From contig CAXSDM010000001.1 in NCBI GenBank assembly GCA_964235575.1, positions 72,863 through 109,635 on the forward strand: a stretch of DNA of 36,773 bases, read 5' to 3'. Within the stretch, counting starts at the first letter, position 1; each line of letters opens with the position of its first letter. Positions 1,553 to 29,235 of the stretch are shown piece by piece. This DNA comes from an uncultured Acidobacteriaceae bacterium (GTDB lineage Bacteria; Acidobacteriota; Terriglobia; Terriglobales; Acidobacteriaceae). The position numbers and the translations under genes are program-made. The notes below the pieces were generated by a model, which saw only the letters and a list, made by a program, of their open reading frames with translations, was not told the DNA's origin and did no database searches.

Positions 1553-1567
1553 AGTCAACGGGTGACT
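1553..1567. promoter_or_regulatory. Palindromic operator candidate, copy 1 (AGTCAACGGGTGACT)
   Basis: Perfect AGTCA-N5-TGACT about 40 nt upstream of the aldolase start; near-identical copies at 4750, 21332 and 29221. Confidence 0.7.
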
Positions 1568-1606
1568 TTTGATCAAGTCACTAAAGTTTGCTACGGGAGA
1601 AATTCC

Positions 1607-2446
1607 ATGTTCGAAAAGAATAGGCTTCTGGCTATGCTCGAGCGAAAGGAGATTCCGCTCGGTATTCAGGTGTTTACGGGAAGCCCCGAACTCATCGAAG
1701 TGATCGGCGCAACGGGATACGACTTCGTGATGATCGACACGGAACACAGTGGAACAAATGTACGCGCCCTGGAAAACCTGATCCGAACCGCGGAGCTCGC
1801 CGGGCTTTTCCCGTATGTACGCGTCCCCGATCACTCGAACGAAATCGACATCCGTCGCGCCATCGAAGCCGGCGCTGAAGGCATCTTCCTCCCGCTGATC
1901 CGCAGTGCGGCAGACGTACTCGCCGCCGCCGATCACGCGTTCATTCCACCGAAGGGAAAGCGAGGCATTTGCCCAGCCGCGCGTGCAGCGCGTTACAATT
2001 TCCGCCGCTTCCAGGAGTATGCAGATTGGAATAACGCAGAAGTGGCCTTGATCCCGATGATCGAGAACGCCGAAGCCGTGGAGAACATCGATGAGATTTG
2101 CGCTCTGGAAGACGTGAAGATGCTGGTTTTCGCGCCTGGTGACCTGGCGTTTCAACTCGGCGAAAGCACTTCCATGATGCGTGGCCCGAAAGTACAAGCG
2201 GCTTACAAGAAGGTGATGGAAGCGACCAGGCGACATGGTGTCGCCGTCATCGGCGGCCCAGTACTCGATCCAACTGTGGCCGGCTGCAAAAAGGCGCTGG
2301 CAGATGGAGTGACTATCTTCTGTCTCGGTCTGGACACACTGGGATTCCGGAAATTCTGCGAGGGAACCGTTACGACGTTGAACGAGTCGCTCGAAGGAAC
2401 GCAGTACACGCGCCGCCCTGCTCCGGAAAGCGGCTTTCCCGGCTAG
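1607..2446 (+). CDS. HpcH/HpaI-family class II aldolase / citrate-lyase-like enzyme (copy 1)
   Basis: Motifs DFVMIDTEH, VRVP, MIE and APGDL (metal-binding E/D, catalytic R/H). ATG at 1607 follows a GGGAGA RBS. Confidence 0.88.
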   Translation: MFEKNRLLAMLERKEIPLGIQVFTGSPELIEVIGATGYDFVMIDTEHSGTNVRALENLIRTAELAGLFPYVRVPDHSNEIDIRRAIEAGAEGIFLPLIRSAADVLAAADHAFIPPKGKRGICPAARAARYNFRRFQEYADWNNAEVALIPMIENAEAVENIDEICALEDVKMLVFAPGDLAFQLGESTSMMRGPKVQAAYKKVMEATRRHGVAVIGGPVLDPTVAGCKKALADGVTIFCLGLDTLGFRKFCEGTVTTLNESLEGTQYTRRPAPESGFPG

Positions 2447-2483
2447 AACCACTCATAAAAGCAACTCAAAAGGGAGATCCACA

Positions 2484-3020
2484 ATGGTTTCAAAATGGAA
2501 ACGGTATGTCGTAGGGCCTGACGAGAACGGCAAGTCCGCGGTGTTGACGGACGAAGCGACCAACGTGCAGGAGGACCCAGGCATCTTCTGGCGGGCGACT
2601 TTGTGGAGCACGGAAGAAGTGCCCGTAAACAATGCCATTAAGGGCGACCGGGCAGAGGGCCACAAGACGCGTCACCCGCACCCGGGCGGCATGCTGATGC
2701 GCGCTGTTGAGATCCCTCCGGATTCCAAGGAGAAGACCCATCACATCGAACAGCTGAAGAAGCTGCATGCCTCCGTGCAACAAAAACATACGCCCACAGC
2801 GGAAGATCTGGCACGTCACCCCAGCATGCACAGGACGGATACGCTGGATTGCATCGTGTGCGTTCTCGGCGAAATTCACCTCGTCACCGATATCGACGAC
2901 GTCGTGATGCGTCCCGGCGACTCCGTTGTGATTCGGGGCACGAATCACGCCTGGAGCAATCTTACCGACAAGCCCGCACTGCTTGTGGGTTGCATGATGG
3001 ACGCCATCCCTCAACCCTAG
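2484..3020 (+). CDS. Cupin-domain protein (FdeH-like)
   Basis: N-terminal RYVVGPDENGKSAV plus MHRTDTLD..V.GEI and PGDSVV.RGTNHAWSN cupin motifs; GGGAG RBS. Confidence 0.85.
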   Translation: MVSKWKRYVVGPDENGKSAVLTDEATNVQEDPGIFWRATLWSTEEVPVNNAIKGDRAEGHKTRHPHPGGMLMRAVEIPPDSKEKTHHIEQLKKLHASVQQKHTPTAEDLARHPSMHRTDTLDCIVCVLGEIHLVTDIDDVVMRPGDSVVIRGTNHAWSNLTDKPALLVGCMMDAIPQP

Positions 3021-3058: not shown

Positions 3059-3859
3059 ATGACGACATCGCCACGCAAGAATCCGTTCCTCGACAGGCTT
3101 CGTGCCGACGAGCCGACGCTGATGATGGCGATTCGCAGCTCTCGGACGACGGAGATCGTGCGCATCGCCAAGGCGACCGGAAACCACGCTGTCATGGTCG
3201 ACCTGGAGCACAGTGCGATCACCATCGACACGGCAGGCGAGATGTGCGGTGCTGCCGGCGACCTGGGGCTTACGCCTTTCGTGCGCATTCCGGAGCGAGA
3301 TTACGGCATCATCGGCCGTCTTCTCGACTCCGGCGCATTGGGCATCCTTGCTCCACGGATCGAAACGGTCGCGCAGGCCGAAGAACTTAGCCGCGCGTGC
3401 CGCTTCCCGCCGGACGGGCAACGCTCGCAGCTGGCGATGGTGCCGCAATACGGCATGCGCCCGATGCCTGCTTGCGAACTGAACCCCTTGCTGGACGCAA
3501 GCACCATTGTGCAGGTGCTGCTGGAAACTCCGCAGGGCGTTGGGAATGCCGACGCTATCGCAGCCCTGCCGGGTGTCGATGTGCTGAGCATAGGCGCCAA
3601 TGATCTGTGCGCGGAACTCGGCATTCCGGGTCGCTTCGAGGACGTGCGGTTGCGTGAATGCGTTACGGCCGTCGCAGAGGCATGCAAGCGACACGACAAG
3701 CTGTTCATGCTGGGTGGAATCAGCGATCTTGCGATCCTGAAGTCTCTGCGTCCGCTCGGCATTGCGCCGCTCTACCAGACCGGCACAGACACCGACATGC
3801 TGTTCTTTGCCGCCGAACAACGCAGCAAGCGCTTACTGGAGTGGCACGCCGGGGCGTGA
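3059..3859 (+). CDS. HpcH/HpaI-family class II aldolase (copy 2, divergent from copy 1)
   Basis: Motifs VMVDLEH, VRIP, RFPPDGQRS, LLETPQGV.NADAIAALPGVD and IGANDL. Start set at ATG 3059 after GGAG. Confidence 0.88.
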   Translation: MTTSPRKNPFLDRLRADEPTLMMAIRSSRTTEIVRIAKATGNHAVMVDLEHSAITIDTAGEMCGAAGDLGLTPFVRIPERDYGIIGRLLDSGALGILAPRIETVAQAEELSRACRFPPDGQRSQLAMVPQYGMRPMPACELNPLLDASTIVQVLLETPQGVGNADAIAALPGVDVLSIGANDLCAELGIPGRFEDVRLRECVTAVAEACKRHDKLFMLGGISDLAILKSLRPLGIAPLYQTGTDTDMLFFAAEQRSKRLLEWHAGA

Positions 3860-3868: not shown

Positions 3869-4666
3869 CTAGCGTCGAAGCAACGACGACAGCAAGCTGG
3901 AAAGAGCGGAAGTTCCGCCCGGCGACGGCGAAGTTCGTGGCAGCGACATGATCGCGTCCGCTGTCTGCTGGTGGTAGGCCACGGCAGCAGCGTGAGCAGC
4001 CACGACGTCGCGTGCACGAATGGCCGAAACAACGTCCTGACGGTATTTTGCAAGTTGCAACGCGACCTGCCGGCGTAGTTTGTCGGATGCACCGGTCAGC
4101 TCTGCGGCCAACGCGAACTGCACCTCGGCCAGCGAACGGCAAAGAACCGCCAGCAGAGGGTTCTTAGAAGCAGCTGCGATCGCGTTCGTGAAGCGTGTGA
4201 GTGCGGCAGTGATAGCAGCGCTGTTCTTTGACTTCTGCACTTCAACGAGAGCGTCGTTCATCTCGGTCAAGTCGTCGGTGGTGGCATTTTGGGCGGCCAG
4301 TTCGATAGCAAGTATGTTCAGCGCCCGGTACACCGACAGGACCTGCGAAACGTTTAGCTGGTCGATCTGCATCGTAGAGCCGAGCGAAGAGGAGATGAGC
4401 TCATCGGTGTCGGCGGTAACGTAGGCTCCGCTCCCGTGCCGCACTTCGATGAATTGACACATCGCAAGGGCGCGAATAGCTTCTCGCACCGTCGAGATGC
4501 TGACACCATAGATCCCCATCAGTGCTTTTTCGGTTGGGAGCTTGTTGCCGCGGACAAGCTCACGGCTCAGGATCTTCGCCTTGATCACCTGGAAAATGTG
4601 TTCGGCTGCCCGTGTCTGAGGCGCTTTGAGCGGTTCAACCCCTTCAGTTTTCGCGGGTTTCGGCAT
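3869..4666 (-). CDS. GntR/FadR-family transcriptional regulator
   Basis: Winged HTH (LPTEKALMGIYGVSISTVREAIRAL..EVRHGSGAYV) plus an FCD-like C-terminus (AIAAASKNPLL). Probable start MPKPAK. Confidence 0.9.
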   Translation of the reverse strand: MPKPAKTEGVEPLKAPQTRAAEHIFQVIKAKILSRELVRGNKLPTEKALMGIYGVSISTVREAIRALAMCQFIEVRHGSGAYVTADTDELISSSLGSTMQIDQLNVSQVLSVYRALNILAIELAAQNATTDDLTEMNDALVEVQKSKNSAAITAALTRFTNAIAAASKNPLLAVLCRSLAEVQFALAAELTGASDKLRRQVALQLAKYRQDVVSAIRARDVVAAHAAAVAYHQQTADAIMSLPRTSPSPGGTSALSSLLSSLLRR

Positions 4667-4749
4667 TCCTTGGAGTATAGCTTCGGAACGACGCCGGGCT
4701 GGCCTGCAACTCAACTGATCGTGCGAGACTGATTCGCCGCACGGACTGG

Positions 4750-4788
4750 AGTCACTGGTTGACTTCCGGAAGGCGGCACGCTTACAGT
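4750..4788 (+). promoter_or_regulatory. Operator copy 2 (AGTCACTGGTTGACT) overlapping a sigma70-like promoter TTGACT-N18-TACAGT
   Basis: Palindrome at 4750-4764 in the divergent gntR/esterase spacer; -35 at 4759-4764 and -10 at 4783-4788. Confidence 0.65.
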
Positions 4789-4796
4789 CACGTACT

Positions 4797-6290
4797 ATGC
4801 AGAGCGGGACACAGACAAAGGCGCTTGCCACGATTGACAGCGGAGACCTCGCGGGACTGACGAAGGATGGCGTTCACATGTTCTTCGGTATTCCCTACGT
4901 CGCGGCCCCCACGGGCCCTAATCGCTGGAAAGCTCCACAATCTATGCGTCCGTGGGAGGGCGTTCGCGAGGCAAAGGCTTTTGGCGCGCGCTGCCTCCAG
5001 ACGGTTGGCGCTTCGTTTGACTCTCGCGTCACGGAAGAGAGCGAAGACTGCTTGTTCCTCAACGTGTGGACGGCAACGCTCGGCAGTCAGGCCCGGTGCC
5101 CGGTCATCGTGTGGATTCACGGCGGCGGCAACCTGGGTGGAGCGGGCTCCGAAGATGCCACGGACGGCAGCCAGTTGGCCCAGTCTGGCATTGTTGTTGT
5201 TTCCTTCAACTACCGCCTTGGAGCGCTTGGTTTTCTTTCCCATCCATCCATCGGCTCGAACTTTGCTGTTCTCGATCAGATCGCGGCGCTTCGCTGGGTC
5301 CAGCGCAACATCACCGCGTTTGGTGGCGATCCGGACAATGTGACGCTGATGGGCCAGTCGGCAGGAGCGCAAGCTGTAAGAGTTCTGCTGTCCTGTCCCA
5401 CCGCGGATGGTCTCTACCATCGTGCCGTAATGCAGAGTGCCGGCTTCGAAGCTCCGGCTTTTGCCGAAGCCTGGTCTCTGAGCCGCGCGCACGCTGCAGC
5501 GGAAGAGTTGTTCGCGATGCTCGGCAGCAGGGACGTTGCCCAGCTCCAACTGGTGCCAGGGGAAGAACTGAAGAGGGTCTCGCACGAGCTGTCCGGCGTG
5601 ATACCGAAGCCTGGACGCGTGCATACGCCTGCCAATCTCGTCTGGATGCCGGTGCATGACGGGGAACTGGTCACGCGTAGCTCACCGGCGGAGTGGCCCA
5701 TGTCTGTCCCCGTGCTGATGGGGTATATGGCCAATGAGGCTCGCTACTTTATCAAGCCGAATGCGCCTGTCACCACTGAGGTTCTCGAGCGGATGGCCGG
5801 TGCGCTCTGCGGTCCGAAGCGCGATGAAGCTATAGCAGCGCTGCATCAACAGGGTGGCTCCGTCTACGAATCCCTGGAAGAGCTGTTTTCCACGGCTATC
5901 TGGACGGAGCCCGCATACGCTACGCTGCAGCATCTGGCGCTCAGCGGCCACACCGTTTTCTTCTATGTCTTCGGAAGGGAGTCACCCGGCGCACGGGTGA
6001 CTCAGGAGCTCGCGAAACACACCGCGGAGATCCGTTATGTCTTCGGGACTCTGCAGCCTGGTGAGGCATACGATGAGGTTGACCGGAGTATCTCGCATTC
6101 CATGCAACATGCCTGGACCACGTTCGCGCGCACCGGAGTTCCTGCAGGAGAAGATGGCGAGCCGTGGCCCGCATACTCTCCCACATCAGACCTAAGCACG
6201 CAAATTCGAAACAGTGTGGAGAGCGGACATCTTGTCGTGTCACGGCTTGTCACGATTGTCTCGGCACTGCGGCATGCTTCTGAGAGTTGA
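4797..6290 (+). CDS. Type-B carboxylesterase (alpha/beta hydrolase)
   Basis: FFGIPYVAAP, SEDCLFLNVW, WIHGGG oxyanion hole, NYRLG, FGGDPDNVTLMGQSAGA (nucleophile Ser) and HTAEIRYVFG (catalytic His). No obvious signal peptide. Confidence 0.93.
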   Translation: MQSGTQTKALATIDSGDLAGLTKDGVHMFFGIPYVAAPTGPNRWKAPQSMRPWEGVREAKAFGARCLQTVGASFDSRVTEESEDCLFLNVWTATLGSQARCPVIVWIHGGGNLGGAGSEDATDGSQLAQSGIVVVSFNYRLGALGFLSHPSIGSNFAVLDQIAALRWVQRNITAFGGDPDNVTLMGQSAGAQAVRVLLSCPTADGLYHRAVMQSAGFEAPAFAEAWSLSRAHAAAEELFAMLGSRDVAQLQLVPGEELKRVSHELSGVIPKPGRVHTPANLVWMPVHDGELVTRSSPAEWPMSVPVLMGYMANEARYFIKPNAPVTTEVLERMAGALCGPKRDEAIAALHQQGGSVYESLEELFSTAIWTEPAYATLQHLALSGHTVFFYVFGRESPGARVTQELAKHTAEIRYVFGTLQPGEAYDEVDRSISHSMQHAWTTFARTGVPAGEDGEPWPAYSPTSDLSTQIRNSVESGHLVVSRLVTIVSALRHASES

Positions 6291-6328: not shown

Positions 6329-7288
6329 TCAGAACCGGCGAGTCTGCGGTTCCATAGCGGGCTCGGTCAGCCCGCCGAGCCTGGCCTGAAACTCAGGCGA
6401 AGGCCGCAAGGGTGCGCCTTTCGCCGCATCCAGGTGCGCGGACAAGTGTGCACGTGTCTGTGCAGAGGTCTTACGGTAGATGGCGCGGCACAACTCATAC
6501 GCCGCATGACCCGGCCAGTCCTCCGGAAGCAGCACGGCGGGCAGCTGCGGGTCGTGCAGAACAACCCGGCGAAAAGAATGGATTAGCAAAGTCTGCACCA
6601 CGAAGGCATTCGCGGGGCTGATCCTTTCGTGCAGGAGCCGCTCCAGAGGTTGGAACTTGCGAAGAAAGCCGTTGTAATGATCGGCCACGCGCTTCAGGTC
6701 CCAGCATTCACTGACCAGGCGGGCTCCCGGTTTGGTGACGACCCCATCGAGATCGCGTGCCTGCATGACGACGACATCGTCGGCCAGCCGAAATCGTCGC
6801 AAGATCTGGTCGAGGTTCGCTCGGTTCGCCCGTGGGTGGATGAAGACGCCCGGAGATACAAGCCCGTACCCTTCCCACTCCAGTTCCCGGCGAACCTCTG
6901 TCCTCACCGCCACTGAAACCTGAAGCTTGCTGAGGATGACGATCGTCCAGTTCCCATCCCACTCCCTGGGCGGCAACTCGTAGATGCGCCCGTAGGCGTG
7001 CTCCACCCGTTCCCGGCTCCCTTCCGTAAGGGAGTAGAGACTTCTGCGCCCTTCCCTTTGCGATTCGAGCCAGTTCTCCGAAGCCAAACGGAACGCACTT
7101 GTCCGGGCGAGTTGAGAGTTCATCCCGAACGGCGTCAGCAGCGCGATCAACTCACTGAGCCAGATACCCGGGACGTAAGGAAGAAGTGAGTCACCGAAGA
7201 TGGTGACGATCAGCGATTTTGAGCGCGGTGGGTCGCTTGTCAGGGAACTCTTGATCCAGTTCTGAATGCTGTTCGGCTTCGCCGCCAT
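6329..7288 (-). CDS. paaX: Phenylacetyl-CoA-responsive repressor PaaX
   Basis: RSKSLIVTIFGDS, WDGNW, ELEWEGYG and HDPQLPAVLLPEDWPG motifs; divergent from paaA. Confidence 0.95.
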   Translation of the reverse strand: MAAKPNSIQNWIKSSLTSDPPRSKSLIVTIFGDSLLPYVPGIWLSELIALLTPFGMNSQLARTSAFRLASENWLESQREGRRSLYSLTEGSRERVEHAYGRIYELPPREWDGNWTIVILSKLQVSVAVRTEVRRELEWEGYGLVSPGVFIHPRANRANLDQILRRFRLADDVVVMQARDLDGVVTKPGARLVSECWDLKRVADHYNGFLRKFQPLERLLHERISPANAFVVQTLLIHSFRRVVLHDPQLPAVLLPEDWPGHAAYELCRAIYRKTSAQTRAHLSAHLDAAKGAPLRPSPEFQARLGGLTEPAMEPQTRRF

Positions 7289-7336: not shown

Positions 7337-7401
7337 AATACAACGGCTCACAATGTATTACACAATTTATCTTGACAATCTCTATTCTGTACCGATACAA
7401 C
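7337..7401 (+). promoter_or_regulatory. paaX/paaA divergent promoter region with candidate PaaX operator
   Basis: AT-rich spacer with TTGACA at 7372-7377 and TACAAC 18 nt later, an inverted repeat AATACA-N11-TGTATT (7337-7359), and the box AATGTATTACACAATTT (7352-7368). Confidence 0.6.
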
Positions 7402-7438: not shown

Positions 7439-8431
7439 ATGTACGCACAATTGGTAGACACAGGCGTTTCGAAGGTACGTACAGGCGCGGAACTCAGCCC
7501 GGAAGAGCAGGCCTTTGAAGCCAAGATCGATGCCGGCATCAAGATCGAAGCCAAGGACTGGATGCCCGAAGGCTACCGCAAAACGCTTGTCCGTCAGATT
7601 AGCCAGCATGCGCACTCGGAGATTGTCGGACAGCTGCCTGAAGGTAACTGGATCACGCGCGCTCCCAGCTTGAAGCGCAAATCCATTCTGCTTGCCAAGG
7701 TGCAGGACGAAGCCGGCCATGGGCTCTATCTCTACAGTGCCGCGGAGACGCTGGGCACGGCGCGGGAAAAAATGGTCGACGACCTTCATGCCGGCAAGGC
7801 GAAATACTCCAGCATCTTCAACTACCCGACGCTTACATGGGCGGATATGGGCGCGATCGGCTGGCTGGTCGATGGCTCGGCCATCATCAACCAAATTCCT
7901 TTGTGCCGCTGCTCCTACGGGCCTTACGCGCGTGCGATGGTGCGCGTGTGCAAGGAAGAGTCGTTCCATCAGCGGCAGGGCTACGACATCATGATCCAAC
8001 TGTGCAACGGAACACCGGAGCAGAAAGCGATGGCACAGGATGCGCTCAATCGCTGGTGGTGGCCGTCGCTGATGATGTTCGGGCCGAGCGATGCGGAGTC
8101 GGTCAACAGCGCGCAGTCGGCGCGCTGGGGCATCAAGCTGTTTTCGAACGACGAGTTGCGTCAGAAGATGGTCGACCAGACAGTGCCGCAGGCGGAGTTC
8201 CTGGGCCTTACCGTGCCCGACCCGGACCTCAAGTGGAACGAAGAGCGTGGCCACTACGACTTCGGCGAAATCTACTGGGAAGAGTTCTATAACGTCATCA
8301 AAGGCAACGGGCCCTGCAACAAGGAGCGGCTCGCGACCCGTGTGAAAGCGCATGAAGACGGAGCCTGGTTCCGCGAAGCGTTGATGGCGTATGCCGACAA
8401 ACGCAACATGGCGTCAGCGCAAGCAGCGTAG
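7439..8431 (+). CDS. paaA: Phenylacetyl-CoA 1,2-epoxidase subunit A
   Basis: [30 protein letters not shown] and [11 protein letters not shown] di-iron motifs; GGGAGG RBS. Confidence 0.97.
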
Positions 8432-8463
8432 CGAGCGCCGTATCGCCAGGCGTTACAAGGGAA

Positions 8464-8757
8464 ATGAGAGCCATGGAAAAACCGTCACCACTCTGGGAAG
8501 TCTTCATCCGCAGCCAGCACGGCCTTGCGCACAAGCATGTGGGCAGCCTGCACGCATCGGACGCGCAAATGGCGATCAACAATGCACGCGACGTTTACAC
8601 GCGCCGCAATGAAGGTGTCAGCATCTGGGTAGTTCCTTCGGCAGACATCATAGCCAGCTCGCCGCAGGACAAAGAGCCGTTGTTCGAGCCGGCCAACAGC
8701 AAGGTCTATCGGCACCCTACATTTTTCCCGATGCCTACCGAAGTCAAGCACATCTGA
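8464..8757 (+). CDS. paaB: Phenylacetyl-CoA epoxidase subunit B
   Basis: WEVFIRS.HGL.HKHVGSLHA.D..MA..NARDVYTRRNEGVSIWVV; the start may be at 8473. Confidence 0.97.
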   Translation: MRAMEKPSPLWEVFIRSQHGLAHKHVGSLHASDAQMAINNARDVYTRRNEGVSIWVVPSADIIASSPQDKEPLFEPANSKVYRHPTFFPMPTEVKHI

Positions 8758-8777
8758 AATCTCCCCGAGAGCGGCCC

Positions 8778-9545
8778 ATGCCTGTAGCTCAGCAAAACGC
8801 AAAGACGACCTACCTGCTTCGGTTGGGAGACACCGCATTGGTGTTGAGCCAGCGCATGTCCCAGCTTTGCGGCAAGGGTCCTGCGCTGGAAGAAGATATG
8901 GCGATGGCCAACACGGCGCTCGATCTTCTGGGACAGGCGCGGCTCTGGCTTAGCTACGCCGCGGAAGTGGAAGGCAGCGGCCGCGATGAAGACTCACTCG
9001 CTTTCCTACGCAATGATCGCGAGTTTTGCAACTTCCTGCTCGTCGAGCAGCCCAACGGCAACTATGCGGACACGATGGTTCGCGAGTTCTTCTTCGATGC
9101 CTGGCACACGCTTGCGCTTGATCGCCTGATACGATCCGCGGACCCGCGCATCGCGGAAATCGCGGCGAAGTCGCAGAAGGAAGTCACCTATCATCTGCGT
9201 CGCAGTTCTGACCTGATCGTGCGCATGGGTGATGGTACCGAGCAGAGCCACGCCTTTGCGCAGAGGGCAGTGCTTACCTTGTGGCCCTTTACCGGCGAGA
9301 TGTTTACGACAGACTCCATCGACAACGAAATGGTTGCAGCGGGCGAAGGCTTCGATCCATCCTCGTTGAAAGACGATTGGCTCGCGTACGTCGGCAAGGT
9401 GTTTCAGGTGGCCACGCTCCAAGTGCCCGCCCCAGATGGCTGGATGCAAAAAGGCGGCAAGCAGGGCGTACATACAGAGCATCTCGGATACCTGCTGGCG
9501 GAGATGCAGGTAGTGCATCGCGCGCATCCAGGAGCCAGGTGGTGA
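8778..9545 (+). CDS. paaC: Phenylacetyl-CoA epoxidase subunit C
   Basis: LRLGD.ALVL.QR, PALEED.A.AN..LDLLGQAR and HTEHLGYLLAEMQ...RAHPGARW. Confidence 0.97.
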   Translation: MPVAQQNAKTTYLLRLGDTALVLSQRMSQLCGKGPALEEDMAMANTALDLLGQARLWLSYAAEVEGSGRDEDSLAFLRNDREFCNFLLVEQPNGNYADTMVREFFFDAWHTLALDRLIRSADPRIAEIAAKSQKEVTYHLRRSSDLIVRMGDGTEQSHAFAQRAVLTLWPFTGEMFTTDSIDNEMVAAGEGFDPSSLKDDWLAYVGKVFQVATLQVPAPDGWMQKGGKQGVHTEHLGYLLAEMQVVHRAHPGARW

Positions 9546-10135
9546 ACACTCCGGCCAACCTCATTTCGACGATTCGTCCGGCCCGGCCGCTTGCCGGGGA
9601 GGGGTACGTGCGGCCTGCGCTCGATACGCTTTGGGCTTGGCTCGGAGACGTTCCCGACCCCGAGATCCCGGTAGTTTCCGTTACGGATCTCGGCATTGTG
9701 CGCGATGTCGCATGGAGCGAGGGCGAAGGAGACGTTGCGGTAGTGACCATCACACCGACCTATTCAGGATGCCCCGCCACCGATGTGATCGGCCACCAGA
9801 TTCGTGAACAACTGCTTCAACGCGGAGTACCGGCAGTCGATCTTCGCGTGCAGCTTTCACCTGCGTGGACGACGGACTGGCTTACAGACGCGGCCAAGCA
9901 GAAGCTCAAGGCATACGGCATCGCTCCGCCGACGGAGCAGGCCACGGCAGCGGGTGGTGCGATGGCTGAAAGCCTGCGAATGCTTGGGCTCGGCGCACAG
10001 AAGCCCAGTCTGCTTTGCCCTCGCTGCGGATCGGAGCATAACGAGATGATCAGCCGGTTTGGCTCCACACCCTGCAAGTCGCTGCACCGCTGTCTCGATT
10101 GCCAGGAACCTTTCGACCACTTCAAGTGCCACTAG
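9542..10135 (+). CDS. paaD: Phenylacetyl-CoA epoxidase maturation subunit D
   Basis: VPDPEIPVVSVTDLGIVR, TPTYSGCPA, CPRCGS and FGSTPCK..RC..CQEPFDHFKCH. GTG start overlaps the paaC stop (GTGA). Confidence 0.95.
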   Translation: MNTPANLISTIRPARPLAGEGYVRPALDTLWAWLGDVPDPEIPVVSVTDLGIVRDVAWSEGEGDVAVVTITPTYSGCPATDVIGHQIREQLLQRGVPAVDLRVQLSPAWTTDWLTDAAKQKLKAYGIAPPTEQATAAGGAMAESLRMLGLGAQKPSLLCPRCGSEHNEMISRFGSTPCKSLHRCLDCQEPFDHFKCH

Positions 10136-10168
10136 CGTAACCAGCACGACGACCAGAGCCCAGCCGAA

Positions 10169-11242
10169 ATGAGCCAGTTCCATTCACTTCGCGTCGCTTC
10201 CCTCACGTATGAAACACGTGACACGGTCGTCGTCACGTTCGACATACCCGAAGAGCAGCGCAGCGACTTCCGGTTCACCCCGGGGCAGAACCTCACGCTA
10301 CGCGCGCACTTTGATGGCGAAGAGATTCGGCGTTCCTATTCCATCTGTTCTGCACCCTTTGAGCAGAGGGTTTCGATCGCGATCAAGCGCGTGCAGGATG
10401 GCCTCTTCTCAACATGGGCCAACAAAGAGCTGCGTCCCGGCCACACCATTGAGTGCATGCCTCCTAGCGGCAACTTCGGCGCTCCGGTCGAGCCCGCAAG
10501 AGCCCGTCATCACGTAGCGTTCGCGGCGGGCAGCGGCATTACGCCGATCCTTTCCATCCTGAAGACCGTGCTGCACGAAGAGCCGCACAGCCGGTTCACA
10601 CTGGTGTACGGCAACCGCGCCTCCTCGTCGGTCATCTTCAAGGAAGAGCTCGAAAACGTGAAAGACCGCTATCTCGAGCGCTTCCGGCTCGTCTTCATTC
10701 TCAGCCGTGAGCAGCAGGACATCGACCTCTTCAACGGCCGCATCGATCGCGCCAAGGCCGACCTGCTGTTCAAGCAATGGATCGATCCCACGGACATTGA
10801 TCTCGCCTATATCTGCGGACCACAATCCATGATGGAAGACGTCTACGCAAGTCTCGCGGAACATGGCGTCGCAAGAGAAAGCATCAAGCGAGAGCTCTTT
10901 GGCACCGCGCCGCGCAGCCCGCGCAAAGTCGCCGTTGCGGAAGCAGCGGGCGATCGAGCTTGCACCGTCCGCGTGATCCAAGATGGCCGCCAACGTGAAT
11001 TTACGATCCGCAAGAACCAGCAGACCGTGCTGGATGAAGCCCTCGCACAGGGCATCGAACTGCCGTACTCCTGCAAAGGCGGCGTCTGTTCCACCTGCCG
11101 CTGCAAGCTCACCACCGGCGAAGTGGAAATGGATGTCAACTTTGCGCTGGAAGACTACGAAGTCGCTCGTGGCTTCATTCTCACTTGCCAAAGCTACCCC
11201 GTCAGCAACGAGCTCGTGCTTGACTTCGATCAGGAAAGCTAG
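10169..11242 (+). CDS. paaE: Phenylacetyl-CoA epoxidase reductase subunit E (FAD/NADPH, 2Fe-2S)
   Basis: RRSYSIC, AAGSGITP, ICGP and PYSCKGGVCSTC...LTCQ ferredoxin motif. Confidence 0.97.
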   Translation: MSQFHSLRVASLTYETRDTVVVTFDIPEEQRSDFRFTPGQNLTLRAHFDGEEIRRSYSICSAPFEQRVSIAIKRVQDGLFSTWANKELRPGHTIECMPPSGNFGAPVEPARARHHVAFAAGSGITPILSILKTVLHEEPHSRFTLVYGNRASSSVIFKEELENVKDRYLERFRLVFILSREQQDIDLFNGRIDRAKADLLFKQWIDPTDIDLAYICGPQSMMEDVYASLAEHGVARESIKRELFGTAPRSPRKVAVAEAAGDRACTVRVIQDGRQREFTIRKNQQTVLDEALAQGIELPYSCKGGVCSTCRCKLTTGEVEMDVNFALEDYEVARGFILTCQSYPVSNELVLDFDQES

Positions 11243-11249
11243 CCAAACC

Positions 11250-12026: not shown

Positions 12027-12054
12027 CCGACATATCGCTGTGAGGAGCATTCGC

Positions 12055-16476: not shown

Positions 16477-16478
16477 CC

Positions 16479-16934
16479 ATGCCTGATACCGGTCTGACTC
16501 TTGCGCAGCGCGTGGTCACCGCCATGCTCGCAAAGGACCGCGCCACGCCGATGCTCGGCATGGTGGTGCTGAGTGCGGCAGAAGGCACATGCTGCCTGGA
16601 GATGCGCGTACGCGAGGATATGCTGAACGGGTACGAAACCTGCCACGGCGGCATCCTGTTTTCGCTTGCGGACTCTGCCTTTGCCATCGCCTGTAACAGC
16701 CGCAACCTGTGCACGGTAGCAGCGGGCGCACAGATCGATTTTCTTAGGCCTGCGCGGGTCGGCGACGTGCTCCGCGCAACCGCTGTCGAAGTTTCGGCGG
16801 GCAAGCGGCTCGGTCTGTATGACGTCACGGTGGTCAATCAAAAGCAACAAACGATCGCTCTCTTCCGTGGCAAGTCCTGCCGCGTCGACGGCGTTCTCGT
16901 CGACGGGGAAAACTCAGAGTTCGCAACGGTTTAG
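16479..16934 (+). CDS. paaI: Phenylacetyl-CoA thioesterase (hot-dog fold)
   Basis: MLNG...CHGGILFSLADSAFAIACNS and ALFRGKS. Confidence 0.95.
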   Translation: MPDTGLTLAQRVVTAMLAKDRATPMLGMVVLSAAEGTCCLEMRVREDMLNGYETCHGGILFSLADSAFAIACNSRNLCTVAAGAQIDFLRPARVGDVLRATAVEVSAGKRLGLYDVTVVNQKQQTIALFRGKSCRVDGVLVDGENSEFATV

Positions 16935-16944
16935 CCAGGTCTTT

Positions 16945-19496: not shown

Positions 19497-20107
19497 TGAA
19501 CACATATGAGTTCGATGGGATCGTTCCGGTCGTAGATCCGAGCTCCTACGTGCATCCCACCGCTGTGTTGATTGGAGACGTCATCATCGGCGCACACTGT
19601 TACATCGGAGCCAATGCCGTTCTGCGCGGCGACTTCGGCAGGCTCATGCTGCACGACGGCAGCAACTTGCAGGACACCTGCGTGATGCACGGCTTTCCTG
19701 AAACCGATACGGTCGTCGAACAGGACGGCCACGTCGGCCACGGCGCAGTGTTGCATGGCTGCCGCATCGGCAGGAATGTCCTGGTCGGCATGAACGCCGT
19801 CATCATGGATAACGCCGTGATTGGCGAAGAAAGCATCGTGGCCGCGCTTGCCTTCGTCAAGGCCGACATGCAAGTGCCGCCGCGCAGTCTTGTCGCCGGG
19901 GTGCCCGGCAAGATTCTCCGGCAGGTGACGCAGCAGGAAATCGACTGGAAGACGACCGGCACAGGCGTGTACCACGATTTGGTAGAGCGTAGCCGCAAGT
20001 CGCTGCGACCCGCGGCGCCGTTGTCTGCTCCTGAGCCTCAGCGCCGCAGGATGGGGCGCATTGCAGGGCTCGATCCGCTCTTTCGGTTGAGACGAACCAC
20101 CGAGTGA
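19496..20107 (+). CDS. paaY: PaaY, gamma-carbonic-anhydrase-like hexapeptide-repeat protein
   Basis: VHPTAVLIGDV, LRGDFG and GHGAVLHGC; TGATG overlap with paaJ. Confidence 0.93.
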   Translation: MNTYEFDGIVPVVDPSSYVHPTAVLIGDVIIGAHCYIGANAVLRGDFGRLMLHDGSNLQDTCVMHGFPETDTVVEQDGHVGHGAVLHGCRIGRNVLVGMNAVIMDNAVIGEESIVAALAFVKADMQVPPRSLVAGVPGKILRQVTQQEIDWKTTGTGVYHDLVERSRKSLRPAAPLSAPEPQRRRMGRIAGLDPLFRLRRTTE

Positions 20108-20109: not shown

Positions 20110-21315
20110 TCAGGCGGGCCGGCTTCTCATGGTGGCCGCAAGCGCAGCCCCGGCGGCCGCGGCACACGCCCATCCATAGGCCATCACGGCGCGTGAGCGT
20201 CCTCCAAGTACATGTGCCATCCCGAGTATCAGAAGCGGGCTGGCAAACTGCCCGAAGGCAAATGCGGATTGCCACGCCCCGGTGCCGCGTCCGCGCACGC
20301 GAGCAGGCAGCGTGGAAAGTGTCCAGCTCATCAGTGTGGGCAGCGCCAGGCCTGAACCCAGATCGTTCAGCGCACCCCCAGCCACGGTGCTTGCATAGCC
20401 CTTGCTCATTGCCACGACAAAGAAGCCTGCGCTCGACAGCACCAGGCTGAGTGCAAGCTTTGTGACAAAACGCGCGCGAAGGAACCGGAAGAGCACCGCT
20501 CCCAGGGGCATCGCCAGTACAGCGATCGCCGTGCCCCGGCCAATCAGCTTCGGCGACGTAATGCCGCGCTCGGCAAGTAGAAAGCCAAGCTGGATAACGA
20601 CGATGTAAAAGGCCGTACTGACAAACGCGGTGATCAGGCAGATGGAGACGGTTGGCCCCCAGCGGAAGTCCGTGACGTCCGCTTCTTCGGCCACCGGCTG
20701 AAGCGCTGCACTCACCGATTCCAGCGGCTTCCCCGGCTCCCAGACCAGGATCAACACAAGCGGCACCAGAAGAAAGCTAAGCCCGTAGATCGCAAACGGC
20801 GTGCGCCAACTCGCTTCCCCGAGCAGACCGCCAAGGCCGATCATCAGGATAGCGATGACGTTGGCGGAACCGGTTTGCAAGGCGAACCAGTGCTCGCGGC
20901 GCTTGCCCGAAAAGTAGTCGCCAATCAACGCGGTCGCCGAGGTCATGATCATCGCCTCGGTAAAGCCCACACCCGCTCGCGACGCGACAATGGCCCGCAG
21001 CGAGCCAAGCCACAACGGCGCGATACCGAACACTCCGTAGATGGCGAGGCCGGCAAGCAGCAGCCGGCGCCGGCCCACGTTATCCGCGAGCAGACCGAAA
21101 GGCACGGCGAGCAGAGAGATGAACAGCGCCGGAAGCGTCGCCACCAGGGCGATCCCTACGTTCTCGTGCGCAGCTCCGTGGAAGGTGGACGTCATCCTGG
21201 GAAGCACAGGCGCGATCACAGCGCTTGCCATGGCGGCCAGCCACGTGCAGGCGATCAGGACCCAGGCCTGCGGTGCGCCGGGTGTTTTTTCTTTGACAGA
21301 ATGAATTCCGGTCAC
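20110..21315 (-). CDS. MFS transporter
   Basis: About 12 hydrophobic segments; motif A (GLLADNVGRRRLL) and its second-half repeat (PARVRGRGTG). GTG start. Confidence 0.9.
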   Translation of the reverse strand: MTGIHSVKEKTPGAPQAWVLIACTWLAAMASAVIAPVLPRMTSTFHGAAHENVGIALVATLPALFISLLAVPFGLLADNVGRRRLLLAGLAIYGVFGIAPLWLGSLRAIVASRAGVGFTEAMIMTSATALIGDYFSGKRREHWFALQTGSANVIAILMIGLGGLLGEASWRTPFAIYGLSFLLVPLVLILVWEPGKPLESVSAALQPVAEEADVTDFRWGPTVSICLITAFVSTAFYIVVIQLGFLLAERGITSPKLIGRGTAIAVLAMPLGAVLFRFLRARFVTKLALSLVLSSAGFFVVAMSKGYASTVAGGALNDLGSGLALPTLMSWTLSTLPARVRGRGTGAWQSAFAFGQFASPLLILGMAHVLGGRSRAVMAYGWACAAAAGAALAATMRSRPA

Positions 21316-21330: not shown

Positions 21331-21360
21331 TTGTCACCCATTGACTTCACGGAGTAAAGT
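21331..21360 (+). promoter_or_regulatory. Operator copy 3 (TGTCACCCATTGACT) overlapping putative promoter TTGTCA-N18-TAAAGT
   Basis: 21332-21346 lies in the divergent MFS/E1 spacer; its reverse complement AGTCAATGGGTGACA matches copy 1 at 13/15. Confidence 0.65.
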
Positions 21361-21384
21361 TACACCTGCAGAAAGCTCCCACGC

Positions 21385-21401
21385 AATTGTGTAACACAAT
21401 T
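21385..21401. promoter_or_regulatory. Perfect palindrome AATTGTGT-A-ACACAATT (candidate PaaX-type operator)
   Basis: 8-bp arms about 20 nt upstream of the E1 start; 14/17 similar to the box in the paaX/paaA spacer. Confidence 0.6.
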
Positions 21402-25787: not shown

Positions 25788-28700
25788 CTAGAAGAGCACC
25801 TTGAGCGCGAACTGGGCCTGCCGCGAAGTGCCATTGGTTGAGTTGAAGCTGCCGGCCGCTGGGTTATATCCAACGATCTGGTTGAGCGTTACGGCACCCG
25901 CAGCCGGCGAGCCGGGAGTGTTCGCGGGCGTAGCGGGTGCACCCTGGATGGCGACAAGGTTCGGGAAGCCGAGGTTTGTGTGGTTGAACACATTGAACAG
26001 TTCACCGCGAACTTCCACGCTGATGTTCTCGCCGAGACGAGTGTTCTTCACCAGTGCCATGTCGAGGTTCTTGAAGCCCGGAGCAACAAGCGAATCGCGA
26101 CGTTCATTGCCGATGGTTCCAAGGGGTTGAACCATAAAGGCGCATGGGTTATACCAGTGCGCTTTGTTATGCACGGTTGCCGGAGCCGTGCAGGTGGGGT
26201 TCGCAGCAACGGGTCCGCCGAGGTTTGGATTTCCCACCACGTTGGCTCGTTCGTTCTTGGGAGAGTTGTTGAAGTTCTCGCGATCGAAGCCATCCAGAAC
26301 GTTGTAGGGTGTGCCCGACCGCAGCTGCACGAGCGCTGTCGCTTCCCAGCCGTTTACGAAGCGGTTGTCCCCATGCTTCGGAAGCTGATACACCAGATTC
26401 GCTGTGCCTACATGCCTTGTATCGAACGCCGCAGGTCCGTAGTCTCCACGAGGATGAAACGGATCTTCGACCAACGTATTTCCATTGATCAGCTCAGTGG
26501 CATTCGTCAACGAACTGATGTCCAGGGCCTTCGACCATGTGTAATTCACCTGGAACTGTACCCCGTGGTTCAACGAGCGTACCAGGCTGCTTTGCAGCGA
26601 ATGGTAGTTGGAGGAGCCACCCGACGGATCATAGGCAAGCGAACTGAAATTCGTGTTGCCTCGCACATAGCCGCGCGCTCCCGGAACAGGGAAGTAGCGC
26701 GTTCCGCTGGGCAGAGCCGCAGCCGTGGGATTGAATGGGTCGGCGCATGGGCAGATCTGTGAAACGGGTGGATTTACATCCGTCAGGTAGAACAGATGCC
26801 GTCCAAAGTTACCGACGTACGACACCGTCAACACAGTCGCTTTATCCAGTTTCTGTTGCACTCCAAGACTTGCCTCTGTCTGGAATGGCGTCGTGGTCCC
26901 GTTGTAGAACAGCTCGTTTGAAGCAGTGGGAACACCCACGCGACCACTGAGCGGGTTAGGGAATGGGACAACGCCACCGGCGATCACCTGCAGGTTATAC
27001 GCTCCAGTCAGCAACTGCGGTGCAATGTAGGTACGTGCCTGGATCGCATTGTGGTAAATGCCGACACCGCCTCGGATCGCTGTGCTTCCGTCCCCAGGCG
27101 CGTACGAAAAGCCGAGCCGTGGATCGATGTTCTTCAACGAGGGATTGTTGCTGTAAGGGTGTTGCGACGAGACAAACGCGGGGTCGGTTGCGGGATTTGC
27201 GAGAACAACGAACTTGCCGTTCGCCTCAATGGGGTTTGTTTCAAACTCGTAACGCAGCCCCACGTTGACGGAAAGGTGCGCGTTCACTTTCCAGTCATCC
27301 TGGATATAGGGGCTCACGTCGACTTCTCTGGAATTGCGTTCGCCGTTTGAACCGGGGGCCGCAAACACCAGCGCCGAAGCGCTATCGGTCAGAAAACTGC
27401 TGAGATTGGCGAAAGTATATTGACCGTCGGAGAACAGGTTGATCTGCGCGTTCGTCAACACGGAAGTGACATCCACTCCGAATTGAAGCTGGTGCGACTT
27501 GACCGTGAGATACGCGTCGTCCTGCAGCGCATACCGGTTCTGGATGAAGCGGGTCGGTCCCATAACGCTTGGACCAAAGCCCTGGCTAGCGCTTCCGCTC
27601 GGCAGCAGGCTGGTGATAAACAGGCTGCCGTACTGGCGCCCGGGCAGCAGCTGCAACGCGGCAAAGGTGGGGTCTTTGTACCCCTGGCGTGCGCCAAAGC
27701 CCGTCCGTGTAAAGTGCAACCGCGCCGTGTTCAGAAGCTTCGGGCTGAAGATGTGCTTTTCTTCGATCGTCGCAAAACGATTGCGCTGGATCGATGTTTC
27801 CGGAAATCCTGCTGTCAGAAGCCCTGGGTACGGGTCGACGAGCACAGCGTTGTCGGAAACGTAGCGGAACGCCAGGTTGTCCTTCGACGAAAGATACTGA
27901 TCGACACGCGCCTGGAAGTAGTCTTCGTTCGCGGGGTTCGGTGCGACCGAGGTGAGCCGGCCGGAGCCATCTCCGTTATCCGTTCCGTTGGGCTGTGGGA
28001 AGAGCGCGAGGAACGGTGCAACGGCAGCGTTCACGCCAAAACTCTGCAAATACGGGTTCAGCGACGGGTTTGGAGCTGTGGTCGTCCCTGAAGCCTTGCA
28101 CACAGCCGCATTCGCGACGGTCAGGGTGCATGGTAGAAAGCCGGTGCGCGCGTTCACGTTGGGTACGTTGGATGTCAGCAACTCACCCAATTGTTGACGA
28201 AGTCCTTCGTAGTTCAAAAACCCGAATGTGCGGTCGTGGCGAATCGGAAAGCCGACGCTGCCGCCAAACTGGTTGCGGCGAAAGGATGGCGGCCCACTCG
28301 CCGGATCGAAATAGTTTCGCGCGTCGAAGACGCTGTTGCGAACGAACTCATACACCGACCCATGAACGTTGTTGGTACCCGAGCGTGTCACGGCGTTAAT
28401 CACACTGCCGCTTCCGCCAAACTGTGCCCCATAGACACCCGTGAGGATCTGGAACTCGGCGATGCCATCGATGCCGAGCGAGGTGCCCACAATGCTCGCG
28501 CCAGACCCGCGCGCCCAATACCCCTGTATGTTCGCGCCGTCCAGCAGTTCCGCCTGGCCCTCGGGCCGGGCACCGGAAACCGAGAAGGAAGGGGACCTGC
28601 CATAGATCGAATTCCGGGGCGAACCCGTGGAAGGTTGAACGCCTGGCGCCAGCAAGACCAGTTGCTCGAAGTTGCGTCCATTGAGCGGCAACTCGTGAAT

Positions 28701-29153
28701 CTGCTGCGGGCTGATCAGTGTGCTCTGCTCGCCCGAGGTCGAGTTCACCTCGCTCTGCACATCCGAGCTGACATCCACGGTTGTGCTTTGCGAGCCAGCC
28801 GCAAGCGGAACGTCGACCGTCAGCTGTGCGCCCACCGTCACCTCGATGCCATCTTTCGTTGCGGTACCAAAACCGGAGGAGGTCGCCGTCAATCTGTATC
28901 GGCCGATGTTGACGTCGGGTACCGAGTAGTGCCCGCGCTTGTCCGCAACAGTTGTGCGCACCACGCTCGTTCCGGTATCTGTCAGGGTCAACGTTGCCCC
29001 CGGGATTACCGCGCCCGTCGTGTCGGTGACTGTTCCGTTTAAGGTTCCTGTGCCGAGTTGAGCGTAGAGCGAGACAGAAGCGCTGCCGAAAAGGGTAAGG
29101 AGGAGACCCAGTGTTCCGAGCCAATACTTGGGTGAGCGGTGGGTATATTGCAT
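25788..29153 (-). CDS. TonB-dependent outer-membrane receptor (acidobacterial Oar-like, with carboxypeptidase-regulatory-like N-domain)
   Basis: Signal peptide, GTVTDTTGAVIPGA, LPLNGRNF..L..LAPGV, TRSGTN..HG..YEF.RN, RNQFGG, YIQDDWK and C-terminal RQAQFALKVLF. Start set at MQYTHR. Confidence 0.93.
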   Translation of the reverse strand: MQYTHRSPKYWLGTLGLLLTLFGSASVSLYAQLGTGTLNGTVTDTTGAVIPGATLTLTDTGTSVVRTTVADKRGHYSVPDVNIGRYRLTATSSGFGTATKDGIEVTVGAQLTVDVPLAAGSQSTTVDVSSDVQSEVNSTSGEQSTLISPQQIHELPLNGRNFEQLVLLAPGVQPSTGSPRNSIYGRSPSFSVSGARPEGQAELLDGANIQGYWARGSGASIVGTSLGIDGIAEFQILTGVYGAQFGGSGSVINAVTRSGTNNVHGSVYEFVRNSVFDARNYFDPASGPPSFRRNQFGGSVGFPIRHDRTFGFLNYEGLRQQLGELLTSNVPNVNARTGFLPCTLTVANAAVCKASGTTTAPNPSLNPYLQSFGVNAAVAPFLALFPQPNGTDNGDGSGRLTSVAPNPANEDYFQARVDQYLSSKDNLAFRYVSDNAVLVDPYPGLLTAGFPETSIQRNRFATIEEKHIFSPKLLNTARLHFTRTGFGARQGYKDPTFAALQLLPGRQYGSLFITSLLPSGSASQGFGPSVMGPTRFIQNRYALQDDAYLTVKSHQLQFGVDVTSVLTNAQINLFSDGQYTFANLSSFLTDSASALVFAAPGSNGERNSREVDVSPYIQDDWKVNAHLSVNVGLRYEFETNPIEANGKFVVLANPATDPAFVSSQHPYSNNPSLKNIDPRLGFSYAPGDGSTAIRGGVGIYHNAIQARTYIAPQLLTGAYNLQVIAGGVVPFPNPLSGRVGVPTASNELFYNGTTTPFQTEASLGVQQKLDKATVLTVSYVGNFGRHLFYLTDVNPPVSQICPCADPFNPTAAALPSGTRYFPVPGARGYVRGNTNFSSLAYDPSGGSSNYHSLQSSLVRSLNHGVQFQVNYTWSKALDISSLTNATELINGNTLVEDPFHPRGDYGPAAFDTRHVGTANLVYQLPKHGDNRFVNGWEATALVQLRSGTPYNVLDGFDRENFNNSPKNERANVVGNPNLGGPVAANPTCTAPATVHNKAHWYNPCAFMVQPLGTIGNERRDSLVAPGFKNLDMALVKNTRLGENISVEVRGELFNVFNHTNLGFPNLVAIQGAPATPANTPGSPAAGAVTLNQIVGYNPAAGSFNSTNGTSRQAQFALKVLF

Positions 29154-29196
29154 GGATTTCGGGTCCTGTCCCGCGCGGTTTTCTGGAGCGCCCCGA

Positions 29197-29235
29197 ATCA
29201 TATGTGGTACAAGACGGAAAAGTCAACGGGTGAAT
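29197..29235 (-). promoter_or_regulatory. TonB-receptor promoter TTGACT-N18-TATGAT overlapped by operator copy 4 (AGTCAACGGGTGAAT)
   Basis: Minus strand: -35 at 29226-29221 and -10 at 29202-29197. The operator at 29221-29235 is 14/15 identical to copy 1. Confidence 0.7.

What the first reader, a model, noticed from the sequence alone, without database searches (positions are those of the whole stretch)
1553..29235. One 15-bp palindrome marks all four non-paa promoter regions, suggesting a regulon wrapped around the paa cluster
Seen in sequence: AGTCAACGGGTGACT (1553, before aldolase-cupin-aldolase); AGTCACTGGTTGACT (4750, between gntR and the esterase; reverse complement AGTCAACCAGTGACT); TGTCACCCATTGACT (21332, between MFS and E1/E2; reverse complement AGTCAATGGGTGACA); AGTCAACGGGTGAAT (29221, before the TonB receptor). 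The consensus is AGTCAAY-NN-GTGACT. In three cases the site overlaps a plausible -35 box, as expected of a repressor. I did not see it in the paaX/paaA spacer. Inference: the local FadR/GntR protein, whose own upstream region carries a copy, co-regulates uptake, ester hydrolysis, C-C cleavage and 2-oxoacid oxidation genes spread over 27 kb.
Basis: partly seen in the sequence, partly recalled or inferred. Interest (0 to 1): 0.85.

Follow-up and report, generated by a model that had tools for sequence, protein, structure and literature searches.

The report
Repressor operator marking an uncharted pathway
A short DNA palindrome sits on four promoters flanking a phenylacetate-breakdown cluster and recurs beside related regulator genes in several bacterial phyla, so it is likely the operator through which the neighbouring GntR-family protein represses an uncharacterised pathway predicted to feed phenylacetate breakdown.

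Summary
Observation confirmed. The four sites are at the stated places, and AGTCAAYNNGTGA occurs only there in the 3.0-Mb, 72%-complete assembly. An independent test backs the regulator. De novo palindrome search upstream of homologues of the window's FadR/FCD-type GntR gave GTCA-N5-TGAC as a top dyad: 57 of 144 regions versus about 1 in shuffles (consensus AAGTCACYWRGTGACTT). A matrix built without the window ranks three window sites 1-3 genome-wide; the TonB-receptor site is weak (11th, background level). A sister GntR clade carries a different palindrome. The aldolase, cupin, esterase, SnoaL and GlcG-like genes travel with this GntR in Proteobacteria, Acidobacteria and Actinomycetes. New here: a second, PaaX-type inverted repeat (RNTACA-N25-TGTAVC) lies at the paaA, E1/E2 and TonB-receptor promoters, so two of the four units are probably under dual GntR and PaaX control. 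Binding, repression, effector and substrate are untested, and autoregulation is uncertain. This is a local catabolic regulon of a known kind with an uncatalogued, non-canonical operator and an unknown upper pathway. My best substrate guess is arylpyruvate-derived compounds.

The parts
1552..1568 (.). GntR-type operator 1; overlaps the predicted extended -10 (1547-1555) and start region of the aldolase-cupin-aldolase unit
   Evidence: (17.6 bits, rank 2); 21 of 31 orthologous aldolase genes have a site upstream
1607..2446 (+). HpcH/HpaI-family aldolase-like protein 1 (module core)
   Evidence: PF03328; orthologues 49-72% identical in related loci
2484..3020 (+). Cupin (module core)
   Evidence: PF07883; present in 22 of 23 large loci that hold aldolase 1
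3059..3859 (+). HpcH/HpaI-family aldolase-like protein 2 (accessory)
   Evidence: PF03328; close orthologues in only 2 loci
3869..4666 (-). FadR-subfamily GntR regulator (GntR + FCD), predicted binder of the palindrome
   Evidence: PF00392 + PF07729; homologues, loci, tree
4749..4765 (.). GntR-type operator 2; its right arm is the -35 of the esterase promoter (TTGACT-18-TACAGT)
   Evidence: 17.4 bits, rank 3
4797..6290 (+). Carboxylesterase (accessory), likely a leaderless transcript
   Evidence: PF00135; present in 8 of 23 aldolase-1 loci
6329..7288 (-). PaaX, phenylacetyl-CoA-responsive repressor; predicted binder of the second motif
   Evidence: TIGR02277 above cutoff
7357..7393 (.). PaaX-type inverted repeat flanking the paaA -35
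   Evidence: same position in 3 of 3 acidobacterial paaX-paaA spacers; only 13.4 bits, rank 10, by the external matrix
7439..20107 (+). paaABCDE-F-Z-G-H-I-K-J-Y phenylacetate catabolic operon (no GntR-type site)
   Evidence: Pfam/NCBIfam
20110..21315 (-). MFS transporter, divergent from E1
   Evidence: PF07690; 3 of 4 orthologues have a site upstream
21331..21347 (.). GntR-type operator 3; overlaps the -35 (TTGTCA-18-TAAAGT) of E1 and lies 16-32 nt upstream of the MFS start
   Evidence: (17.7 bits, rank 1)
21359..21395 (.). PaaX-type inverted repeat overlapping and downstream of the E1 -10
   Evidence: 23.8 bits, rank 1 in genome; conserved in L046, L022, L175
21422..24726 (+). Fused E1 alpha-beta and E2 of a branched-chain-type 2-oxoacid dehydrogenase; candidate phenylpyruvate to phenylacetyl-CoA step
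   Evidence: sits directly behind paaY in L175
24847..25711 (+). SnoaL-like and GlcG/HbpS-like genes (module core), probably co-transcribed with E1/E2
   Evidence: PF13577, PF03928; hits in 34 and 78 of 157 loci
25788..29153 (-). Outer-membrane beta-barrel receptor of the TonB-dependent type
   Evidence: PF25183 + PF13620; 74-75% orthologues in L046 and L022
29206..29242 (.). PaaX-type inverted repeat enclosing operator 4 and the receptor -35
   Evidence: 19.8 bits, rank 2; conserved in L046
29220..29236 (.). GntR-type operator 4 (weak); one arm is the -35 of the receptor promoter (TTGACT-18-TATGAT)
   Evidence: 10.6 bits, rank 11; 13 nt identical to site 1

Best explanation
The palindrome is likely the operator of the adjacent FadR/FCD-type GntR, which is predicted to repress four promoters of an uncharacterised catabolic module until a substrate-derived effector releases it. 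Shown: the sites, their overlap with promoter-like elements, and their conservation with this GntR subfamily and its gene module. Inferred: a dimer binds the two GTCAC arms and blocks RNA polymerase. Induction would switch on import (outer-membrane receptor, MFS), ester or lactone hydrolysis (esterase), C-C cleavage (aldolase + cupin, with SnoaL and GlcG-like helpers) and oxidative decarboxylation (E1/E2). PaaX likely co-represses the E1/E2 and receptor promoters through a second inverted repeat, so these two units would need both the upstream compound and phenylacetyl-CoA. The module likely yields arylpyruvate or arylacetate that enters the paa pathway, with E1/E2 acting as a phenylpyruvate dehydrogenase.
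For: Only 4 genome hits, all at these promoters. De novo dyad 57 of 144 versus about 1 upstream of homologues. External matrix ranks window sites 1, 2, 3 of 3.0 M positions. 107 of 157 homologue loci have a site of 12 bits or more versus 5 of 157 shuffled (partly circular, since the matrix came from these loci). The window GntR lies in a 98%-supported clade where 44 of the 46 other rows have a site. A sister actinomycete clade has CTAC-N3-GTAG instead, in 9 of 25 regions. In 5 genomes with the GntR, 9 of 12 near-perfect sites are in the GntR locus; 0 of 5 relatives without it have any. 21 of 31 aldolase-1 orthologues have an upstream site; 0 of 8 paa genes do. The second motif is conserved in 3 of 3 paaX-paaA spacers. 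A matrix from other genomes ranks the window E1 and receptor boxes 1 and 2. The motif is absent at the E1 promoter of L050 and the receptor promoter of L025, whose genomes gave no paaX match. E1/E2 follows paaY with that box in L175. Precedent: PglB/C (PMC7089894, passages).
Against: No binding or expression data. The window GntR is on a long branch (1.03; 51% to its nearest row). DNA around its closest orthologues (74-93%) was not obtained, so the assignment rests on 31-51% relatives. All four window sites depart from the family consensus at one position. Site 4 is at background level (11-18 such scores per simulated genome) and is not conserved in L046. Only 1 of 21 esterase orthologues has its own site. 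One non-cluster site scores 16.3 (C26:8416). The window's paaA box ranks only 10th, one box of similar score occurs at a 26-nt spacer elsewhere, and the spacing and half-site differ from E. coli PaaX's TGATTC-N27-GAATCA (PMC9493321, passage). A 79% identical E1/E2 in G494 has neither paa nor the module within about 18 kb on each side, and source names call the family 2-oxoisovalerate dehydrogenase. Only 5 of 64 large loci show paa genes.
Confidence: 0.72

Rival explanations
1. GntR binds the sites, but only three are functional; the receptor promoter is controlled by PaaX alone and its copy is a -35 box plus chance similarity.
For: 10.6 bits, rank 11; left arm not conserved in L046 while the PaaX-type box and -35 are.
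Against: 13 nt identical to site 1; leave-one-out score 21.3 with at most 4 genome positions as high; the L025 receptor promoter has a 16.6-bit site at a similar place.
Confidence: 0.2
2. GntR acts as an activator (or dual regulator) from sites overlapping the -35.
For: Sites 2 and 4 are centred near -38 relative to the predicted starts; FadR itself activates some targets (PMC6608401, passage).
Against: Site 1 covers the predicted -10/start and site 3 covers the -35 and spacer; the -35 hexamers are near consensus, which does not suggest a need for activation.
Confidence: 0.08
3. Another factor (a global regulator or an alternative sigma factor) recognises the motif, and GntR merely co-occurs.
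For: The assembly is only 72% complete; no binding was tested.
Against: The motif follows the GntR across three phyla, changes in a sister clade, is local in genomes that carry the gene and was not found in 5 relatives lacking it.
Confidence: 0.04
4. The regulon is real, but E1/E2 is a generic branched-chain 2-oxoacid dehydrogenase and the module's product is not an arylpyruvate or arylacetate; adjacency to paa is incidental.
For: G494 E1/E2 stands alone; most homologous loci lack paa and E1/E2 nearby.
Against: PaaX-type boxes at the E1 promoter in 4 loci of 3 genomes, including the window; E1/E2 directly behind paaY in L175; of 64 large loci, 5 show paa, 8 hpc/LigB-type and 2 mandelate/pca genes; an aromatic-acid symporter is present in 32 of 64.
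Confidence: 0.2

Closest known systems
FadR-subfamily GntR local regulons (PdhR, LldR, GlcC, DgoR; Suvorova et al. 2015, PMC4494728, passages and supplement search)
   Same: GntR HTH + FCD domains; palindromic operator at promoters of a co-located catabolic cluster; divergon with the regulator gene.
   Different: The operator is AAGTCAC-N3-GTGACTT, not TKGT/ACMA. The position matching the G-contacting Arg45 of E. coli FadR is Gly/Ser/Ile in this subfamily. GTGACTT has 0 hits in that paper's site tables. Best PDB relatives are distant (E about 1e-23).
PaaX catabolon with co-regulated upper pathways (styrene in Pseudomonas Y2, penicillin G acylase in E. coli W; titles and a passage seen in PMC9493321; the Y2 paper itself was not held)
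   Same: A PaaX-type long-spaced inverted repeat extends control from paa to upstream genes that have their own regulator.
   Different: Half-site RNTACA with a 25-nt spacer versus TGATTC-N27-GAATCA; the partner is a GntR repressor; the host is acidobacterial.
HypR of Streptomyces coelicolor (PMC6608401, passages)
   Same: FadR/FCD repressor whose site contains GTCAC.
   Different: Its motif CTNTGCMATGTCAC is asymmetric with one GTCAC; it controls hydroxyproline use; no sequence link was tested.
PglB/PglC of pristinamycin biosynthesis (PMC7089894, passages)
   Same: A pyruvate-dehydrogenase-like E1 suggested to turn phenylpyruvate into phenylacetyl-CoA.
   Different: Biosynthetic context and split subunits; here a fused E1 with its own E2 in a catabolic cluster; orthology not tested.

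Membership tests
FadR subfamily of GntR regulators | N-terminal GntR winged HTH plus C-terminal FCD domain | tested here: met
   PF00392 E=6.7e-17 and PF07729 E=1.5e-11, both above cutoff
FadR subfamily of GntR regulators | Canonical operator with TKGT/ACMA boxes | tested here: not met
   Family consensus AAGTCACYWRGTGACTT; the review notes that some members have unique motifs, so this marks a variant, not exclusion
FadR subfamily of GntR regulators | Arg at HTH position 38 (E. coli FadR Arg45) contacting G | tested here: not met
   No Arg in 39 of 39 rows of A1 or in 138 parsed of 142 locus proteins (that set is biased by the search pattern)
Local repressor regulon | Operator conserved upstream of orthologous genes and co-occurring with the regulator | tested here: met
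Local repressor regulon | Direct binding and effector-dependent release; derepression in a deletion mutant | not testable with these tools
   needs EMSA/DAP-seq and RNA-seq
PaaX regulon | paaX gene present | tested here: met
   TIGR02277 296 bits versus cutoff 264.55
PaaX regulon | Long-spaced inverted repeat at paa promoters | tested here: inconclusive
   Positionally conserved N25 repeat in 3 of 3 paaX-paaA spacers, but its sequence differs from the E. coli box and the window copy ranks 10th
HpaI/GarL/RhmA pyruvate aldolases (equivalogs) | Score above the NCBIfam equivalog cutoff | tested here: not met
   107 and 77 bits versus a cutoff of 368.8 for HpaI; the DxEH, Arg, Glu and Asp motifs are kept, so it may work like one
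Phenylpyruvate dehydrogenase (PglB/C-like) | Activity on phenylpyruvate | not testable with these tools
   context only

The most novel reading that the evidence does not exclude
This is the operator-defined regulon of an undescribed, cross-phylum pathway that dismantles arylpyruvate-dimer natural products (fungal and lichen pigments of the pulvinic acid, terphenylquinone or butenolide type). Lactone or ester hydrolysis and metal-dependent retro-aldol/retro-Claisen cleavage would give arylacetate and arylpyruvate, with a GntR-and-PaaX AND gate on import and on a dedicated phenylpyruvate dehydrogenase.
Probability: 0.15. Interest if true: 0.8.

Novelty: new member of a known kind. Interest (0 to 1): 0.5.

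Why it matters
It gives a precise, testable operator for an uncharacterised FadR clade found in Proteobacteria, Acidobacteria and Actinomycetes, including cultured strains (Paraburkholderia, Caballeronia, Variovorax, Pseudomonas, Streptomyces). An operator-reporter can therefore be used to screen for the unknown inducer and so identify the pathway. The clade pair with GTCAC versus CCTAC arms is a natural experiment in GntR specificity. The shared PaaX-type box points to a 2-oxoacid dehydrogenase route into phenylacetyl-CoA. The regulatory logic itself is of an ordinary kind.

Tried and rejected
Motif as a mere -35 box: rejected (4 of 513). RNA element: no Rfam match in the window. Close relatives as a footprinting set: no GntR orthologue in 40 relatives (best 28% identity) or in 400 family genomes; paaX at E<=1e-30 in 4 of 150 relatives. 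Extra genome hits of the family matrix (C26, C20, C8, C31, C22, C79, C37) were inspected; none lies in a module-like context, and their number is at background. Pocket-widening argument for arylpyruvate: the Trp equivalent to YfaU W23 is Gln in all 21 aldolase-1 rows and Ala/Gly/Met in aldolase 2, but the L216-equivalent region aligns ambiguously, so it is weak support only; no structural model was obtained. Dienelactone hydrolase as a common esterase substitute: only 1 of 64 loci at my threshold. The receptor count included one faulty slice (L112), so the valid count is 1 of 2. Literature: searches for the motif, the gene set, vulpinic/pulvinic acid degradation and acidobacterial PaaX listed nothing describing this system (listings only); subscription papers and RegPrecise were not searchable. 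PMC1483010 was not held. Three look-ups in earlier scan findings returned nothing. The Atlas gave only Cupin_7/hypothetical clusters for the alternative bicupin and no answer for the window cupin.

Full report
Observation. The shared core AGTCAAYNNGTGA occurs 4 times in the 3.0-Mb assembly (72% complete), all at these places. Simulated genomes give 0-2 scattered hits. Leave-one-out matrices score each omitted site 16.8-25.1 bits, with at most 4 genome positions as high. Because one arm reads TTGACT, I tested whether it is only a -35 box: 4 of 513 such hexamers have the partner arm. Sites 2 and 4 use that arm as the -35 of 18-nt-spacer promoter-like sites, and site 3 overlaps TTGTCA-18-TAAAGT. 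Site 1 overlaps an extended -10 conserved in L046, L022 and L050. These are consensus matches, not mapped promoters.

Anatomy. Pfam and NCBIfam confirm aldolase-cupin-aldolase, GntR+FCD, carboxylesterase, paaX with a full paa operon, MFS, fused E1 with E2, SnoaL-like, GlcG/HbpS-like and an outer-membrane receptor. The nearest named homologues and the tree place the host among Acidobacteriaceae. The GntR was not found in 400 family genomes searched, so the island is rare there.

Which protein binds. The GntR has six close homologues (74-93%) and a wider subfamily at 36-51%. Scans with their alignment returned 157 loci. In 144 upstream regions (13 dropped as short or duplicate), an unbiased spaced-dyad count gave one nested palindrome at the top: GTCA-N5-TGAC in 57 regions versus about 1 in shuffles, consensus AAGTCACYWRGTGACTT. 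A matrix from 37 unique sites, none from the window, ranks window sites 3, 1 and 2 first to third among 3.0 million positions; site 4 is 11th. 107 of 157 loci hold a site against 5 of 157 shuffled, which is partly circular; 1 of 14 loci of unrelated GntRs has one. On a tree of 142 rows, the window protein lies on a long branch in a supported clade where 44 of 46 other rows have a site (kin are not independent). A site-less actinomycete clade shows CTAC-N3-GTAG in 9 of 25 regions, the same architecture with other arms. In five genomes with the gene, 9 of 12 near-perfect sites fall in its locus; five relatives without it have none. The subfamily lacks the Arg equivalent to FadR Arg45, a G contact (PMC4494728, passages), which fits a non-canonical operator. 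Binding itself is inferred.

What is regulated. Homologues of the flanking genes recur beside the GntR: GlcG-like in 78, cupin in 36, aldolase 1 in 35 (including weaker aldolase hits), SnoaL in 34 and esterase-like in 30 of 157 loci. L046 holds receptor, SnoaL, GntR, cupin, aldolase, E2, E1 and MFS within 14 kb without paa. Sites lie upstream of 21 of 31 aldolase-1 orthologues, 3 of 4 MFS, 1 of 2 E1 and 1 of 2 receptors, but only 1 of 21 esterases and 0 of 8 paa genes. Among 64 loci of 12 kb or more, aldolase 1 (23 loci) and a bicupin (26 loci) coincide once; an aromatic-acid symporter is in 32; neighbouring funnels are paa (5), hpc/LigB-type (8) and mandelate/pca (2).

A second operator. Orthologous E1 promoters share, besides the GntR site, GTTACA-N25-TGTAAC. 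TTACA-N25-TGTA marks three places in the genome: the paaA, E1 and receptor promoters; other spacers give 0-5 scattered hits, so the location, not the count, is the signal. The repeat holds the same position around the -35 in 3 of 3 acidobacterial paaX-paaA spacers. A matrix from other genomes ranks the window's E1 and receptor boxes first and second, a coding-region match third and the paaA box tenth. paaX was found in the genomes of L046 and L022, which have the box, and not in those of L050 and L025, whose E1 or receptor promoters have only the GntR site. In L175, E1/E2 follows paaY with the box and a decayed GntR site. E. coli PaaX binds TGATTC-N27-GAATCA and is released by phenylacetyl-CoA (PMC9493321, passages); the architecture is alike but the letters differ. 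Against a dedicated role, G494 has a 79% identical E1/E2 with no paa or module nearby.

Mechanism. Most likely, GntR represses all four units by occluding the promoter until a pathway compound binds its FCD domain, and PaaX adds a phenylacetyl-CoA requirement at import and at E1/E2. The module would import an aromatic acid or ester, open it, cleave a C-C bond and pass arylpyruvate or arylacetate to paa, or to hpa/pca in other hosts. A PDH-like complex for phenylpyruvate has been suggested before (PMC7089894, passages). The substrate is a guess. The aldolases keep the metal and catalytic motifs but fall far below the HpaI/GarL cutoffs, and they replace the Trp whose removal widens YfaU's donor range (PMC7610986, passages); the second pocket residue aligns ambiguously. 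Arylpyruvate-dimer pigments fit the chemistry (my own knowledge, not from a call), but no search found support.

Unexplained. All four window sites have GTCAA where the family has GTCAC in 107 of 118 arms. Only two can be put down to the -35; the diverged HTH (Ile-Ser at positions 38-39) may have shifted specificity.

Novelty. The ten literature searches (listings only, apart from the passages cited) and the site tables of PMC4494728 (4 of 7 partial hits viewed, none this motif; GTGACTT 0 hits) showed no description of the motif or module. Closed-access papers, bioRxiv supplements and RegPrecise were not seen. It works like, and by domains is, a FadR-type local regulon with an atypical operator.

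Noticed in passing
window 139-1128 and L187 19207-19893: Flavin monooxygenase with weak similarity to Tet(X) (87.5 bits versus cutoff 750, so not a member) next to a divergent ORF that looks like a TetR-type regulator just left of the window; no GntR-type site.
   Followed up: partly
window 1133-1489: IS110-family transposase remnant at the left edge of the island.
   Followed up: no
window 4674-4679 / 4666 and 4783-4788 / 4797: Predicted -10 boxes lie 7-8 nt before the ATGs of gntR and the esterase, suggesting leaderless transcripts.
   Followed up: no
window 1576-1581 and 4786-4791; many homologue loci (e.g. L100 1407/1415, L067 9844/9852/9860): Extra AGTCAC half-sites downstream of sites 1 and 2; in homologues, weaker sites often overlap the main one at an 8-bp offset, hinting at higher-order binding.
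   Followed up: no
L143, L169, L131, L167, L061 and related loci: Sister actinomycete GntR clade with the palindrome AACCTAC-N3-GTAGGTT in place of AAGTCAC-N3-GTGACTT.
   Followed up: partly
L021 7348-8253 and about 50 other loci: An uncharacterised ~300-aa bicupin (Cupin_7-like, no PDB or NCBIfam match) almost never co-occurs with aldolase 1 + cupin, suggesting an alternative enzyme for the same step.
   Followed up: partly
L022 5897-6300 and L175 307-3680: In one genome the E1/E2 behind the dual promoter is reduced to remnants, while an intact copy follows paaY under the PaaX-type box only.
   Followed up: partly
window 26387-26423; L046 6157: A PaaX-type repeat inside the receptor coding region at the same position in both orthologues; probably explained by codons.
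   Followed up: no
L025 292-17931: Granulicella locus pairs aldolase 2, MFS, GlcG-like and receptor genes with pobA/pca-type genes and a malate synthase.
   Followed up: no
window 29600-36773: ABC ATPase and several long ORFs without Pfam matches, with strong GC/AT skew at 30-33 kb; unrelated to the motif.
   Followed up: no
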